DNA from: Candidatus Wolfebacteria bacterium RIFCSPLOWO2_01_FULL_45_19
GTDB taxonomy: Bacteria > Patescibacteriota > Minisyncoccia > UBA6257 > GWB1-45-9
DNA: 64,000 nucleotides
Reading direction: 5' to 3'
Assembly (NCBI GenBank): GCA_001793855.1
Contig: MGIR01000001.1
Coordinates: forward strand, 8,645-72,644
The translations under genes were made by a program, and so were the position numbers. Below, piece after piece: positions 21,387 to 38,479 of the stretch (positions within the stretch are counted from its first letter, which is position 1; each line of letters starts with the position of its first letter). The notes under the pieces are model-generated. The model was not told the DNA's origin. It saw only the letters and a program-made list of their open reading frames with translations, and ran no database searches.

Positions 21387-21725
21387 ATGACTATGGAAAA
21401 CCGCGAAAAACAAGACGAGACGGCCGATGAACGGCCTATGACAGAAACCGAGCTTACCATCAGCAATTGGTTCTGGATTGAGTTTATGAAACGTATGGGA
21501 AAATCCGAAGCCGATCTCCCGGCGCTTATAGAAAAATACGGCGGGCTCGAAGAACATATCTTTTTCAAAAATGAAGAACGCGCGGAACATCTCGACGACG
21601 CGGCGCTTGAATCGCTCGCGCGCGACGCGGAAGCCGTCTTATTGCGAGGAGAGCCGCTTGAATCGCACCCTAAATTGCTCAAGCTTTACAAGCATATTGA
21701 AGCAAAACTATTGCGGGGGCACTAG
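21387..21725 (+). CDS. hypothetical acidic protein
   Basis: ORF with a good upstream promoter. Its 3' end overlaps tRNA-Trp by ~12 nt. Confidence 0.35.
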   Translation: MTMENREKQDETADERPMTETELTISNWFWIEFMKRMGKSEADLPALIEKYGGLEEHIFFKNEERAEHLDDAALESLARDAEAVLLRGEPLESHPKLLKLYKHIEAKLLRGH

Positions 21726-21784
21726 GAATCGAACCCAGATTGGCGGTTTTGGAGACCGCCGTCCTGCCATTGAACGATGCCCCC
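21714..21784 (-). tRNA. tRNA-Trp (anticodon CCA)
   Basis: Manual cloverleaf: acceptor GGGGGCA/TGCCCCC, anticodon loop CTCCAAA, T-loop TTCGATT. Confidence 0.8.
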
Positions 21785-21794
21785 GGATTAAAAT

Positions 21795-21880
21795 CTCTAA
21801 ACCCTTATCTCTAAATCCTAAACGTTTGAAGTTTTGAATTTGAGATTTATTTAGAAATTAGATATTAAAAATTAGGATTT
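21795..21880. repeat. palindromic heptamer-repeat element (ctaaatcc / ggatttag family)
   Basis: The left arm tctaaacccttatctctaaatcctaaac is nearly identical to the arm of the element inside the 16S gene at 32221. Confidence 0.7.
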
Positions 21881-21891
21881 ACATAAAAAAG

Positions 21892-22062
21892 CTACTTTCT
21901 CGCTTCTTTATGCGCGGTATGTTTTCTGCACCAATCACAAAATTTGGAAAGTTCAATCTTTCTTTCAACTTTCTTTTTATTTTTGTGCGCATTATAATTC
22001 ACACGCTTGCATTCGGCGCAGCGAAGCCGCACAAATCTTTCCGATGTTTTTATTTTAGCCAT
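21892..22062 (-). CDS. rpmG: 50S ribosomal protein L33 (56 aa; not in ORF track)
   Basis: Minus-strand translation MAKIKTSERFVRLRCAECKRVNYNAHKNKKKVERKIELSKFCDWCRKHTAHKEARK. Confidence 0.8.
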   Translation of the reverse strand: MAKIKTSERFVRLRCAECKRVNYNAHKNKKKVERKIELSKFCDWCRKHTAHKEARK

Positions 22063-22069
22063 AATTTTG

Positions 22070-22141
22070 AGCCAGCGGGGAGAATTGAACTCCCGCTCTT
22101 TCCCTTACCAAGGGAGTGCTTTACCACTAAGCTACGCTGGC
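22070..22141 (-). tRNA. tRNA-Thr (anticodon GGT)
   Basis: Manual fold: acceptor GCCAGCG, D-loop AGTGGTA, anticodon loop TTGGTAA, T-loop TTCAATT. Confidence 0.7.
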
Positions 22142-22185
22142 GTCAGTATAACACATATTAACACGCTCAACAAGAAAGAAAAGTG

Positions 22186-22257
22186 AGCCACCTCTCGGAT
22201 TCGAACCGAGGACCCACGCTTTACAAAAGCGTTGCTCTGCCGCTGAGCTAAGGTGGC
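22186..22257 (-). tRNA. tRNA-Thr (anticodon TGT)
   Basis: Manual fold: acceptor GCCACCT, anticodon loop TTTGTAA, T-loop TTCGAAT. Confidence 0.75.
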
Positions 22258-31712: not shown

Positions 31713-31994
31713 GATTTATATTATAGCAAAACTTTTCTCGTTGTCCCAAGAGTCGAGACTTGATGGCTCATCGACTAATACCATCCCGCCGAAGCGGGGT
31801 CGACACTAGTTTTCATTATTGAAAACTAAGTTTAATTAATCCACGCACAGCTTCCGCTACGCGTGCCTTGTTACGACTTCGTCCGTGTCACCGAACTTAC
31901 CCTAACCCCGCAAAACGGAGTTTTAGGTATTCCCGGCTTCCTTGACGTGACGGGCGGTGAGTACAGGACTCGAGAACGTATTCACCGCGGCATA

Positions 31995-32029
<35 letters not shown>

Positions 32030-32193
32030 AGGGCGAGTTGCAGCCCTCAATCCGAACTTGGGCCGGTTTTAAGGGATTAGCTCCACCTTACGGTTTGGCA
32101 ACCCTTTGTACCGGTCATTGTAGCACGAGTGTAGCCCAGGGCATCAGAGGGCCATGCGGATTTGACGTCGTCCCCTCCTTCCTCCCAGCACTT

Positions 32194-32359
32194 TGTTCGC
32201 AAACGAACAAAGCAATTTCTAAACTCTAATATCTAAATCCTAAACAAATTTTAAAAATCAAATCTCAAATTCGAAACGTTTGGAACATTTGAATTTGGAA
32301 TTTTGAGATTGTTTAGAGATTAGGATTTCGAATTTAGGATTTCTTTGCGCTTGTGCGCA
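32194..32359. repeat. ~165 nt palindromic heptamer-repeat element forming an expansion in the 16S h40 loop
   Basis: Closed by CAGCACTT/AAGTGCTG. The arms tctaaactctaatatctaaatcctaaac / gtttagagattaggatttcgaatttaggattt match the element at 21795. Confidence 0.7.
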
Positions 32360-32725
32360 AAGTGCTGGGCAGTTTTGCCTGACACGTATAACAGACAATA
32401 GGGGTTGCGCTCGTTTCCCCACTTAAGGGAACGTCTCACGATACGAGCTGACGACAACCATGCAGCACCTGTCCTGACGTCCTTGAGAGACAACACGCCT
32501 TTCAGCATGTCTTCGTCAAGATTTCTAGCCCTGGTAAGGTTCCTCGTTTAGTATCGAATTAAACCTCATGCTCCACCGCTTGTGCGAGTCCCCGTCTATT
32601 CCTTTGAGTTTTAAGCTTGCGCTCGTACTTCCCAGGCGGCCTGCTTAACGCGTTAGCTTCGCCACTCCGAGGGTCGATACTCGAAACAGCCAGCAGGCAT
32701 CGTTTAGGGCGTGGACTACAAGGGT

Positions 32726-33856
32726 TGAATTTGTTACTTCGCGACAATAGTATTATTGTCACGCGAGCCGAACATTTCTGTCGGCTTCTCTATGTTGCCA
32801 TAGAGTCCGGACTATATCTTTATCTGAAAGCCGTCCATCGAGCCAGTTTCTTCTCGTATTCGGATAAAATAACCGAACGAGGAAAGCGGCTCAAACTTAC
32901 AACCTCAGATATCCAGCGTTCTTGAAATTGAGAATCTTTATAGAGAAGTATTGCTTTGCGCAACATGTCCGGCGTTGGTATATGCGGCAGAATGATGCGA
33001 AGAAACTTTTTTAATTCCTCCTGCGATCTGATCCATATCCGCCAATATTGCCGCCGCTCTCCTTTATAGATACGGGATATGGGAGATACGATATTTTTTA
33101 TATCCCATACTACTTTAAGGTAGCGAGATAGTATTTTGACAGATTCTTTGTCAAAGCCATCGGTACAAAATACTCCCTTTCTTCCTCCGTAACTAATAAG
33201 TGAGCCATCATCACACCACCATACGGCGAGCGATAACGGGGTCATTCGGTTCAGCCAAGTGCGTCTAATGCGCAATCGGTTATTTTTATACGTTAAGCGA
33301 TGCAATTCAGTTAACGCTGGCAGATTTCTGCTTATAAACCGCCACTTGCTGTTTACGCTGAAACCGTCGGCCCTTTGGACACTAATACTTTTCTCTCGCG
33401 CTATCTCTTGAAGCATATCTGCTTTCCATAAGAGATAATCTTTTTGTGTTTCCGAATGACGAATTTGTAAATTCGCATTGGCACATTTTTTTTGAATCTT
33501 CAACGAACCGTCTCCTAGGATTGTTCCTAAAATAACGGCTCGCGCTTGATCCGACAAAGGCACATACTTTTTATCATTTTGCATATTATTATTTTATACG
33601 CTCATGACATAATGCGCCAACTATCTTAACTCAATTTCATAGTCTCTACGGGGTCAAACAAAATGAAATTTGAACTTTCAATTTTGCATTCTGTCGACTT
33701 CCCTCGGGATTGTCCGTCCGACAGGACGGAGTTCCCCGATACAGCTAGATGCTCACCCCGACGTCGCCGTCGAGGGGGACACCTTTGACAACCCCGATTT
33801 ACATCGGGGCTCTTTGTTTCTACGGGCAAAAGGAAAACCCTCCACAAAGATTTCGT
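32726..33856 (-). mobile_element. group I intron in 16S (near E. coli position ~790) carrying a homing endonuclease ORF; boundaries approximate
   Basis: It interrupts GGATTAGATA | CCCTTGTAGTCC. P7 elements GTAGAGACTATG (R) and AAGATATAGTCC (S) are present. Confidence 0.75.
32820..33584 (-). CDS. LAGLIDADG homing endonuclease (double-motif)
   Basis: ILGDGSL and WCDDGSL motifs. Confidence 0.8.
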   Translation of the reverse strand: MQNDKKYVPLSDQARAVILGTILGDGSLKIQKKCANANLQIRHSETQKDYLLWKADMLQEIAREKSISVQRADGFSVNSKWRFISRNLPALTELHRLTYKNNRLRIRRTWLNRMTPLSLAVWWCDDGSLISYGGRKGVFCTDGFDKESVKILSRYLKVVWDIKNIVSPISRIYKGERRQYWRIWIRSQEELKKFLRIILPHIPTPDMLRKAILLYKDSQFQERWISEVVSLSRFPRSVILSEYEKKLARWTAFR

Positions 33857-34457
33857 ATCTAATCCTTTTTGCTCCCCACGCTTTCGTGTCTCAGAGTCAG
33901 GAACGTCCCAGCCAGCTGCCTTCGCCTTTGGTGTTCCGCACGATATCAACGGATTTCACCCCTACACCGTGCGTTCCACTGGCCTCTGACGTCCTCTAGT
34001 TCGGCCGTATCTCTTGCAGCCTCAGGGTTGAGCCCCGAGATTTAACAAAAGACGCACCGAACATCCTACACACGCTTTACGCCCAATAAATCCGGATAAC
34101 GCTTGAGGTCTACGTTTTACCGCTGGTGCTGGCACGTAGTTACCCACCTCTTTCCACAGGGTACCGTCAACCTCGCGCGTAGCGCGAGAACCGAAAAACA
34201 CATGAACGTAAAAACGTAAGAACAAGTTGTTCTTTGGTTTATAGGTTCTTTAGTTTTTTAGTTCTTGTGCTACGCACAAGGCTTCTTCCCCTGCTATCGC
34301 GGTTTACGACCCGAAGGCCTTCTTCCCGCACGCGGCGTCGCTCGATCAGGCTTTCGCCCATTGTCGAATATTCTCGACTGCTGCCTCCCGTAGGAGTATG
34401 CACCGTGTCTCAGTTGCATCGTCGGGGAACAGGCTCTCACCCCCCCTACCGGTCATA

Positions 34458-34492
<35 letters not shown>

Positions 34493-34817
34493 CAGACCTA
34501 AGCCACTCCTGAAGCGATTTGCATCTTTACTCCGACACCCTTGCGGGGTCGGAGATTATTTGGAATTACCTCGTCTTTCGACGAGCTATGCCAAACTTCA
34601 GGGTATGTACTAAGGCGTTACTGACTCGTTCGCCACTGCCTCGCGCCTTGCGCGAGAACAAAAAAACGAAAGAACAAAAGAACTTAAGAACAAAAAGTTC
34701 TTGGGTTCATAAGTTCATGGGTTTTTTAGTCCTTGTGCAAAACACAAGGCCGTTCGACTTGCATGCCTTATCCACGCCGCCAGCGTTCATCCTGGACCAG
34801 GATCAAATCCTCAATAA

Positions 34818-34892
34818 GAGCTTTCAGCTTTTAGCTTATAGCTTATAGAAGGTAACCCCCCTAACAGCTAACAGCTATCAGCTAACAGCTCG
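34818..34892. repeat. agctNNN heptamer palindrome immediately upstream of the 16S 5' end
   Basis: agcttttagcttatagcttatag ... ctaacagctaacagctatcagctaacagct. Confidence 0.6.
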
Positions 34893-38315: not shown

Positions 38316-38390
38316 GGCCGAGTAGCCAAGTGGTAAGGCAGGGGACTGCAAATCCCTTACACGAGGGTTCGATTCCCTCCTCGGCCTCCA
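38316..38390 (+). tRNA. tRNA-Cys (anticodon GCA), CCA encoded
   Basis: Acceptor GGCCGAG/CTCGGCC, anticodon loop CTGCAAA. Confidence 0.8.
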
Positions 38391-38391
38391 A

Positions 38392-38479
38392 GCCCGGGTG
38401 GCGGAATGGTATACGCAAAGGACTTAAAATCCTTGGCTCCTAACGGGGCTTGTGGGTTCGACTCCCACCTCGGGCACCA
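38392..38479 (+). tRNA. tRNA-Leu (anticodon TAA), long variable arm, CCA encoded
   Basis: Anticodon arm AAGGACTTAAAATCCTT; T-loop TTCGACT. Confidence 0.8.

What the first reader, a model, noticed from the sequence alone, without database searches (positions are those of the whole stretch)
32726..33856. Group I intron with a double-motif LAGLIDADG homing endonuclease inside the 16S rRNA
The conserved 16S stretch GGATTAGATA-CCCTGGTAGTCC (E. coli ~785-805) is split by ~1.13 kb. This region contains the group I P7 strands (GTAGAGACTATG ... AAGATATAGTCC) and an ORF with LGDGSL and WCDDGSL motifs.

rRNA introns with homing endonucleases are characteristic of CPR bacteria. Exact splice boundaries could not be fixed by eye: no obvious omega-G precedes the 3' exon.
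Basis: partly seen in the sequence, partly recalled or inferred. Interest (0 to 1): 0.6.

Follow-up and report, generated by a model that had tools for sequence, protein, structure and literature searches.

The report
Endonuclease-carrying group I intron in 16S
The single 16S rRNA gene of this Candidatus Wolfebacteria genome is interrupted at its most conserved loop by a mobile self-splicing (group I) intron that carries a homing endonuclease, which is a known habit of these bacteria, but this intron and about half of its relatives end in A instead of the near-universal G.

Summary
On the minus strand, a 1,131-nt insertion (window 33856..32726) splits the 16S rRNA between U793 and A794. It has a group I ribozyme fold. 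On 16 homologous introns, 93% of cells pair versus about 40% in slid controls, and 27 of 60 pairs show compensatory changes. A 254-aa LAGLIDADG_2 endonuclease sits in the P8 loop. It has two motifs, and its model matches I-WcaI and I-SceI. Rfam's group I model stays below threshold (30.9 vs 50 bits), probably because the ORF splits the core.

The window is Candidatus Wolfebacteria (CPR). Introns of this kind in CPR rRNA genes are already published (Tsurumaki 2024).

Colinearity with the conserved 790 loop, the U793•G pair with a conserved guide sequence, and P10 all place an A at the 3' end. Among 73 unique relatives, 38 end in A and 35 in G. The A-class has a conserved GA/UC P9.0 pairing just before the terminus, and P7 is unchanged. 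One precedent is published (Coxiella 23S). Splicing itself was not tested.

The parts
31829..34818 (-). 16S rRNA gene (2,990 nt; host of the intron plus three short insertions)
   Evidence: RF00177, 1261 bits, model 1-1533
32726..33856 (-). Group I intron, 1,131 nt, inserted between U793 (33857) and A794 (32725) of the 790 loop
   Evidence: Colinearity with GGAUUAGAU|ACCC in the window and 98 loci
33861..33867 (-). S1, exon strand (16S 783-789, AAGGAUU)
   Evidence: Pairs with intron bases AAUCUUU. Present in essentially all relatives at 5-9 bp, with covariation at 784 (G:C 25, A:U 12, G:U 12, C:G 2)
33846..33852 (-). S1, intron strand (AAUCUUU)
33857..33859 (-). P1, exon strand (GAU; U793 is the 5' splice-site U)
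   Evidence: Pairs with GUC of the guide sequence; U793•G in 16/16 sequences
33791..33849 (-). L1 region with two hairpins (CUUUGU..ACAAAG and GCCCCGAUGUAAAUCGGGGU); relatives have one hairpin here
   Evidence: Sequence inspection and alignment A1
33778..33783 (-). Internal guide sequence 5'-GGU·GUC-3' (P10 strand followed by P1 strand)
   Evidence: Invariant in 16/16 sequences and complementary to the ligated exons GAU·ACC
33756..33775 (-). P2 hairpin (CCUCGACG-GCGA-CGUCGGGG)
   Evidence: 8/8 pairs have compensatory changes; 96.9% of cells paired
33741..33748 (-). P3 5' strand (CUAGCUGU)
   Evidence: Pairs with 33617-33624; 96% of cells paired, with G•U/G-C and C-G/U•G exchanges
33704..33739 (-). 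P4 (UCGGGG/UCCCGA) enclosing P5 (UCCGUCC-UGUC-GGACGGA)
   Evidence: 4/6 pairs compensatory in each helix; the same pairing appears in the RF00028 alignment
33651..33703 (-). P6 (GGG..CCC closing a long A/U-rich hairpin)
   Evidence: GGG/CCC invariant; RF00028 alignment
33639..33646 (-). P7 5' strand G(A)GACUAU, with bulged A and the G-C guanosine-site pair
   Evidence: Invariant; pairs with 32809-32815
33625..33638 (-). J7/3, 14 nt (GAAAUUGAGUUAAG), conserved, in the place where subgroup IA introns carry P7.1/P7.2
   Evidence: Alignment A1
33617..33624 (-). P3 3' strand (AUAGUUGG)
32820..33584 (-). Homing endonuclease ORF, 254 aa, LAGLIDADG_2, in the P8 loop; its stop codon UAA abuts J8/7
   Evidence: PF03161 E=1.6e-35; model matches I-WcaI and I-SceI; 815 homologs
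32809..32821 (-). J8/7 (AAGAU) plus P7 3' strand (AUAGUCC)
   Evidence: RF00028 alignment; invariant; 83-93% identical to sequences in several phage genomes over a 37-42-nt stretch
32806..32807 (-). J7/9 GA, the P9.0 5' strand
   Evidence: Pairs with U32728 and C32727. In 38 omega-A introns the pairing is GA:UC x35, GG:CC x2, GA:UU x1
32788..32805 (-). P9 (CUCUAUG-GCAA-CAUAGAG, GNRA loop)
   Evidence: 5/7 pairs compensatory
32740..32785 (-). P9.1 (GCCGA-CAGAAAUGU-UCGGC) and P9.2 hairpins
   Evidence: P9.1: 5/5 pairs compensatory. P9.2: from sequence only
32726..32739 (-). 3' tail AAGUAACAAAUUC-A: conserved GUAACA, P9.0 strand UC, and terminal A (omega position, 32726)
32723..32725 (-). P10, 3' exon strand (ACC; A794-C796)
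   Evidence: Pairs with GGU of the guide sequence in 16/16 sequences

Best explanation
This is a mobile group I intron with a core resembling subgroup IA (phage T4 td type). It sits in the 790 loop of the 16S rRNA of a Candidatus Wolfebacteria (CPR) bacterium and carries a monomeric two-motif LAGLIDADG_2 homing endonuclease in its P8 loop. Shown here: the fold, the insertion site, the protein family, and the non-G terminus. Inferred mechanism: the pre-rRNA folds into P3-P9. The guide sequence GGU·GUC pairs the 5' exon (GAU, with U793•G) and later the 3' exon (ACC). Free guanosine bound at the unchanged G-C site in P7 attacks after U793. The released exon then attacks after the terminal A (32726). 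That terminus is held in place by P9.0 (GA/UC), P10 and the P9.1/P9.2 tail rather than by a terminal G. This restores the universal GGAUUAGAUACCC loop. The endonuclease is expected to cut intron-less 16S alleles at this site and so spread the intron among Parcubacteria.
For: Fold: 60 proposed pairs scored on 16 introns give 93.4% of cells paired versus 38-44% when partners are slid. 27 pairs show changes on both sides, and 0/500 shuffles reach any of the five measures. RF00028 aligns P4-P5-P6-P7 and J8/7-P7-P9 in the same registers. Site: the same junction appears in the window and 98 loci. Guide sequence: invariant and complementary to both exon ends. Protein; D25 and D125 are invariant and D126 nearly so. 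Selection: the ORF is full-length (253-271 aa) in all 19 introns checked, and 815 homologs were found. CPR 16S genes are usually single copy (PMC11270868), so the intron must be removed for the ribosome to work. Terminal A: 38 of 73 unique relatives end in A, with P9.0 GA:UC and one GG:CC exchange. The omega state changes at least four times on a rough endonuclease tree, which suggests both states are viable. One G-ending relative ends UUCG|ACCCC, a single transition away.
Against: RF00028 does not reach its gathering score (30.9 vs 50 bits; no hit in the whole-window scan). P1 and P10 rest on invariant bases, so they have no covariation support. In the window P1 is only 3 bp. P8 pairing is unclear in the window. 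The P7 guanosine site is the standard G-C pair, which from published mutagenesis (my recollection) should disfavour a terminal A. No RNA data were available, so splicing and exon ligation are inferred. The subgroup assignment rests on resemblance to td recalled from memory, and P7.1/P7.2 are absent.
Confidence: 0.8

Rival explanations
1. The ribozyme performs only the first step (or hydrolysis). Without a terminal G the exons are never ligated, and the mature 16S works as two pieces nicked in the 790 loop.
For: The terminal base is A while the P7 G-site is unchanged. The same gene has three further hairpin insertions of the type that are often excised without ligation (the RNase III-type route is described in PMC11270868), so fragmentation may be tolerated in this organism.
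Against: P10 and P9.0, whose known role is in 3' splice-site choice and ligation, are conserved in the A-class, and P9.0 shows a GG:CC exchange. The omega state flips between G and A among close relatives, which is hard to reconcile with two very different rRNA end-products. The 790 loop is a functional, universally conserved site. One published bacterial rRNA group I intron lacking the canonical omega-G is described in its title as self-splicing (title).
Confidence: 0.1
2. The insertion is removed by host RNases like an intervening sequence, and the ribozyme-like core is a decayed relic.
For: The Rfam score is sub-threshold, and the terminus is non-canonical.
Against: The core helices keep pairing through many compensatory changes across divergent hosts. 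P7, J8/7 and the guide sequence are invariant, which indicates selection on the RNA. No long terminal hairpin joins the two intron ends, unlike the three short insertions.
Confidence: 0.05
3. The intron does end in a G further upstream (for example the G of GUAACA), and the mature 790 loop of these bacteria carries extra bases.
For: A conserved G lies 11 nt upstream of the junction.
Against: G-ending relatives have the same GUAACA motif followed by 3-6 bases and then their own terminal G directly before ACCC (L013, L038, L068, L080). GUAACA is therefore an internal element. An 11-nt insert in the universally conserved 790 loop is implausible.
Confidence: 0.03

Closest known systems
Group I introns with LAGLIDADG endonucleases in CPR/Patescibacteria rRNA genes (Tsurumaki et al. 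2024, PMC11270868; Brown et al. 2015 as summarised in PMC9698310)
   Same: Same host group, same gene, same class of ribozyme and endonuclease. Recurrent insertion sites with LAGLIDADG_2/_3 ORFs, and spread by homing.
   Different: That survey did not define splice boundaries (it says so) and does not mention the terminal base. It calls CPR enzymes single-domain; this one is a single Pfam domain but a two-motif monomer.
Phage T4 td and other subgroup IA phage/bacterial introns
   Same: From memory of the td sequence, the P4-P5 core (CGGGGAAC..ACAAUCCCG), P9 with a GNRA loop and an AACAUA(U)G-type 3' tail look alike. The J8/7-P7-P9 stretch is 83-93% identical to sequences in Staphylococcus, Bacillus (AR9, PBS1) and Vibrio phage genomes.
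   Different: No P7.1/P7.2 helices, only a 14-nt J7/3. The ORF is in P8, not P6. The guide sequence lies after a hairpin-bearing L1. An extra exon-intron helix S1 is present. The terminal base is A.
Coxiella burnetii 23S rRNA group I intron lacking the canonical omega-G (Raghavan et al. 2007; only the title was seen)
   Same: A bacterial rRNA group I intron without a terminal G, reported in its title as self-splicing.
   Different: Different gene, site and host. It is a single element, whereas here it is a clade of dozens with endonucleases. I recall that the Coxiella terminus is an A, but I could not read the paper.
[quoted passage not shown] 2012; cited in PMC4853749)
   Same: Bacterial 16S genes with group I introns, including subgroup IA3. 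From memory, one of them sits at about position 795.
   Different: Gammaproteobacterial hosts. Identity of site and homology with this intron were not checked because the paper is not held.
I-SceI and I-WcaI (PDB 1r7m, 6x1j)
   Same: LAGLIDADG_2 family, monomer with two motifs, encoded in group I introns of rRNA genes. Foldseek E = 8e-7 and 3.6e-8 over 214-224 columns.
   Different: 19-24% identity. About 30-40 extra C-terminal helical residues. The target is a 16S site.

Membership tests
Group I intron (Rfam RF00028) | Core helices P3-P4-P5-P6-P7-P9 in canonical order, including the P3/P7 pseudoknot | tested here: met
   93.4% of cells paired versus 38-44% slid; 27 pairs with compensatory change; 0/500 shuffles
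Group I intron (Rfam RF00028) | P7 guanosine-binding site (bulged base plus G-C pair) and conserved J8/7 | tested here: met
   G(A)GACUAU / AUAGUCC and AAGAUA are invariant in 16/16 sequences and nearly so in 73
Group I intron (Rfam RF00028) | P1 formed by a guide sequence with a U•G pair at the 5' splice site, and P10 with the 3' exon | tested here: met
   GGU·GUC is complementary to GAU|ACC in 16/16 sequences. There is no covariation because both sides are invariant, and P1 is only 3 bp in the window
Group I intron (Rfam RF00028) | Terminal guanosine (omega-G) before the 3' splice site | tested here: not met
   The terminal base is A (32726). 38 of 73 unique relatives end in A and 35 in G
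Group I intron (Rfam RF00028) | Covariance-model score at or above the gathering threshold (50 bits) | tested here: not met
   30.9 bits, E=1e-5 in a local scan. 13.8 bits for the 5' half alone. No hit in the whole-window gathering scan
Group I intron (Rfam RF00028) | Guanosine-dependent self-splicing | not testable with these tools
   Needs in vitro transcription or RNA-seq
Subgroup IA (td-like) | P7.1/P7.2 helices between P7 and P3' | tested here: not met
   Only a conserved 14-nt single-stranded J7/3 is present
LAGLIDADG_2 homing endonuclease (I-SceI type) | Pfam PF03161 above its curated cut-off | tested here: met
   122.9 bits versus 25; E=1.6e-35
LAGLIDADG_2 homing endonuclease (I-SceI type) | Two LAGLIDADG helices, each ending in a catalytic acidic residue, in one chain | tested here: met
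   ILGTILGDGSL (D25) and LAVWWCDDGSL (D125/D126). D25 and D125 are invariant in 15 homologs and D126 nearly so. They align to the I-WcaI motifs
LAGLIDADG_2 homing endonuclease (I-SceI type) | Pseudo-dimeric alpha-beta fold | tested here: met
   Model pLDDT 76, pTM 0.78. Best PDB matches are I-WcaI, I-SceI and I-DmoI with probability 1.00
LAGLIDADG_2 homing endonuclease (I-SceI type) | Cleavage of the intron-less target site | not testable with these tools
   Needs an enzyme assay
RNase III-type intervening sequence | The insertion is essentially one long hairpin whose base joins the two ends, with no catalytic core | tested here: not met
   True of the three short insertions but not of this one, which has the group I core

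The most novel reading that the evidence does not exclude
A large, actively spreading clade of natural group I introns in Parcubacteria 16S rRNA completes exon ligation with a terminal adenosine while keeping a guanosine-specific P7 site. A G-C-containing P9.0, together with P10 and the P9.1/P9.2 tail, would substitute for omega-G docking. G and A termini have interchanged repeatedly, so omega-G would not be obligatory in this lineage.
Probability: 0.55. Interest if true: 0.6.

Novelty: new member of a known kind. Interest (0 to 1): 0.4.

Why it matters
The intron itself is ordinary for CPR bacteria. It is the kind of insert that doubles the length of their 16S genes and sits inside the binding site of the common 785F/806R primers, so PCR surveys miss them.

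The part worth a specialist's attention is the 3' end. The terminal G is treated as a defining feature of group I introns because it occupies the same site as the guanosine cofactor. Here there are dozens of natural, apparently functional introns with A at that position. Close G-ending relatives serve as built-in controls, and a covarying P9.0 helix offers a candidate compensating element. That is a ready-made comparative set for asking how 3' splice-site choice can work without omega-G.

The work also gives exact boundaries for annotating the mature 16S. It shows that the 'single-domain' LAGLIDADG_2 proteins of CPR are two-motif monomers.

Tried and rejected
- Rfam at gathering threshold on the whole window and on 8 related loci found no RF00028 hit for this intron. 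One call on 18 loci failed. Scanning the 5' half alone to use truncated-hit mode gave only 13.8 bits.
- I first read the intron's 5' end (AAUCC/AAUCU), which pairs with exon GGAUU, as P1. I rejected that because the splice site would lie in the loop, there would be no U•G pair, and colinearity would fail. It is kept as a separate helix, S1.
- I considered CUCAA/UUGAG as P3. I rejected it because the window has no complement, and the local hairpin P2 covaries instead.
- I looked for an upstream G as omega and rejected it (see rivals).
- P8 pairing (UCUGU/ACAGA in relatives) is not convincing in the window and is left open.
- P9.0 in the G-ending class is only partly consistent (AA:UU and AU:AU in many, unclear in others).
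- BLASTN of the 5' core against phages found nothing.
- I could not read Raghavan 2007, Hicks 2011 or Salman 2012. A search for Cbu.L1917 found nothing. The supplement of Tsurumaki 2024 held as text had no site table.

Full report
**What is there.** Rfam places a full-length bacterial 16S rRNA on the minus strand at 31829..34818 (1261 bits, model 1-1533). At 2,990 nt it is about twice the normal length. Read on that strand...GGGGAGCAAAAAGGAUUAGAU is followed by 1,131 nt and then ACCCUUGUAGUCCACGCC. The universal 790-loop sequence GGAUUAGAUACCC is therefore split between U793 (window 33857) and A794 (32725). The insertion is 33856..32726, exactly the coordinates given.

**Origin.** The 254-aa ORF (33584..32820) is 100% identical to a hypothetical protein of Candidatus Wolfebacteria bacterium RIFCSPLOWO2_01_FULL_45_19. 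It has 815 homologs at E<=1e-5, and those that carry a source name are from Parcubacteria-group (CPR) bacteria. No 23S or 5S gene lies in the 64 kb.

**The protein.** The protein is a two-motif LAGLIDADG_2 enzyme.
- It matches Pfam LAGLIDADG_2 (PF03161) at E=1.6e-35 over residues 15-167, a span that contains both motifs.
- By sequence, the closest solved structures are I-WcaI (6x1j) and I-SceI.
- An AlphaFold model built on 15 homologs (pLDDT 76, pTM 0.78) matches I-WcaI, I-SceI and I-DmoI. All are single-chain two-motif enzymes. The matches span 214-224 columns at probability 1.00.
- D25 (motif 1) and D125 (motif 2) are invariant among the 15 homologs, and D126 is nearly so.
- 'Double-motif' is therefore right. 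Tsurumaki et al. describe CPR enzymes as single-domain, but that refers to Pfam domains, and PF03161 spans both motifs.

**The RNA: related loci.** I fetched 18 loci from species-representative genomes and 80 from metagenomes that encode relatives of the endonuclease at 43-100% identity.
- The eight loci scanned with Rfam have the ORF inside a 16S gene.
- Wherever the contig reaches the flanks, the 5' flank is GGATTAGAT and the 3' flank is ACCC(N)(N)GTAGTCC.

**The RNA: the fold.** After trimming the ORF and the large P6 inserts, 16 introns were aligned (A1). I read off the helices by comparison and then scored them.
- Of 60 pairs, 93.4% of cells are standard pairs, against 38-44% when the 3' partners are slid by 1-3 columns.
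- 27 pairs show changes on both sides.
- None of 500 shuffles reaches the observed value on any of the five measures.
- P2, P4, P5, P9 and P9.1 carry most of the compensatory changes. P3 shows wobble/Watson-Crick exchanges. P6 (base), P7 and J8/7 are invariant.

**The RNA: Rfam.** The group I model gives only 30.9 bits (gathering score 50) when the insertion is scanned locally, and there it aligns J8/7-P7-P9 correctly. On the 5' half alone it gives 13.8 bits, but it aligns P4, P5, P6 and the P7 5' strand exactly as I assigned them. Most likely the low score reflects the 765-nt ORF in the P8 loop, the long L1 and the 14-nt J7/3, but I did not test this on an ORF-less copy.

**The RNA: resemblance to known introns.** The core resembles subgroup IA introns such as T4 td. 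That comparison is from memory of the td sequence. The J8/7-P7-P9 stretch is 83-93% identical to sequences in Staphylococcus, Bacillus and Vibrio phage genomes. P7.1/P7.2 are absent.

**Splice sites.** A conserved 5'-GGU·GUC-3' lies between a hairpin-bearing L1 and P2. It is complementary to the 5' exon end (GAU, with U793 opposite G) and to the 3' exon start (ACC), in the canonical order of P10 strand followed by P1 strand. In four relatives the complementarity extends to eight bases, AGAU·ACCC/GGGUGUCU. Together with colinearity, this fixes the site as S793. Both sides are invariant, so the assignment has no covariation support, and in the window P1 is only 3 bp.

Separately, the first bases of the intron (AAUCC in most relatives, AAUCUUU in the window) pair with exon positions 783-789. 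This helix, S1, is found in essentially all introns and covaries with exon position 784 (G:C, A:U, C:G). The splice site lies in its 5-nt loop. S1 is therefore either a pseudoknot partner stacked under P1 or an alternative conformer. I could not decide which.

**The 3' end.** With the 5' site at U793, the last intron base in the window is A32726 (..GUAACAAAUUC-A|ACCC). Shifting the register by one or two bases gives A or C, never G. This is not an oddity of one sequence.
- Among 73 unique 3' regions, 38 end in A and 35 in G.
- The more distant endonuclease relatives mostly end in G, and a rough NJ tree roots in G.
- The A-ending class has J7/9 = G(G)A, and the two bases before the terminus are UC in 35 cases. 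They are CC in 2 cases, where J7/9 is GGC, and UU in 1 case. This fits a P9.0 helix immediately 5' of the terminal base.
- Many G-ending introns have AA:UU or AU:AU at the same place.
- P7 and J8/7 do not differ between the classes.
- One G-ending relative ends UUCG|ACCCC, a single transition away from the A form.
- On the tree the state changes at least four times, including G-ending introns nested inside the A clade.
- The conserved GUAACA upstream occurs in both classes and is followed in G-ending introns by their own terminal G. Its G is therefore not a hidden omega.

**Does it splice?** No RNA data were available. The argument for splicing is indirect.
- CPR genomes usually have one 16S gene.
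- The 790 loop is indispensable.
- The ribozyme core and the ORF are under evident purifying selection in many host lineages.
- Metatranscriptomes support removal of CPR rRNA inserts in general.
- A bacterial 23S group I intron lacking the canonical omega-G has been reported as self-splicing; I saw only the title.
- The main rival is first-step-only chemistry leaving a 16S nicked at 793/794. It cannot be excluded, but it fits poorly with conserved P9.0/P10 and with the repeated G/A interchange.

**Comparison with what is known.** Endonuclease-bearing group I introns at recurrent sites of CPR 16S and 23S genes are published. Bacterial 16S group I introns are also known from giant sulfur bacteria. 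The object is therefore a new, unannotated member of a known kind. What I did not find described in the papers I could read is the A terminus of this lineage with its P9.0 signature, the S1 exon-intron helix, and the exact boundaries.

**Scores.** The finding as stated is correct and ordinary for CPR. The omega-A clade raises its interest to moderate. Confidence is about 0.9 that this is a group I intron with a LAGLIDADG_2 endonuclease at S793. Confidence is about 0.55 that the A-ending form completes both splicing steps on its own.

Noticed in passing
window 34648-34740 (-) and 34174-34276 (-): Two short ORF-less insertions in the same 16S gene (helix-6 and helix-17 regions, about 93 and 103 nt). 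They are about 80% identical to each other, and each folds into one long imperfect hairpin (z -6.9 and -9.4). This looks like one hairpin element present at two sites of one gene. The exact motif GTTCTCGCGC occurs only at these two places in the window.
   Followed up: partly
window ~32195-32365 (-): A third ORF-less insertion of about 170 nt in the 3' major domain of the 16S. It has two short G+C hairpins flanking a long A/U-rich hairpin (MFE -63 kcal/mol, z -8.6) and no Rfam match. It may be an expansion segment or an RNase III-type intervening sequence.
   Followed up: partly
window 1-64000: No 23S or 5S rRNA gene lies in the 64 kb around the 16S. The bases just downstream of the 16S 3' end appear to be protein-coding, so the 16S is unlinked from the other rRNA genes. 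Seven tRNA genes are scattered through the window (21714-22257, 38316-38476, 42000, 48291).
   Followed up: no
L001, L004, L005, L007, L008, L009, L013, L014 (P6 of the homologous intron): In several relatives the P6 loop holds an extra insert (P6 is 108-292 nt in seven of them, against 16-45 nt in the compact introns; larger in L001). Some contain a small ORF preceded by an AGGA-like motif (for example L005, L007, L009). This would be a second passenger in the same intron. It is absent from the window.
   Followed up: no
L002 3699-4031; L007 4465-4797; L008 5507-5620: Relatives carry further group I intron hits above the Rfam threshold, and one group II domain hit, in or downstream of their 16S genes. 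The window's 16S has none of these.
   Followed up: no
window 33846-33867 (-) and all related loci: A conserved 5-9-bp helix forms between 16S positions 783-789 and the first bases of the intron. It covaries with exon position 784 and places the 5' splice site in a 5-nt loop. Its role is unresolved: either a pseudoknot with P1 or a competing conformer.
   Followed up: partly
L006 (JAUYPG010000045.1): One locus with this bacterial-type 16S intron comes from a bin labelled Nanoarchaeota archaeon. The flanking rRNA sequence matches the CPR loci, so the contig is probably mis-binned.
   Followed up: no
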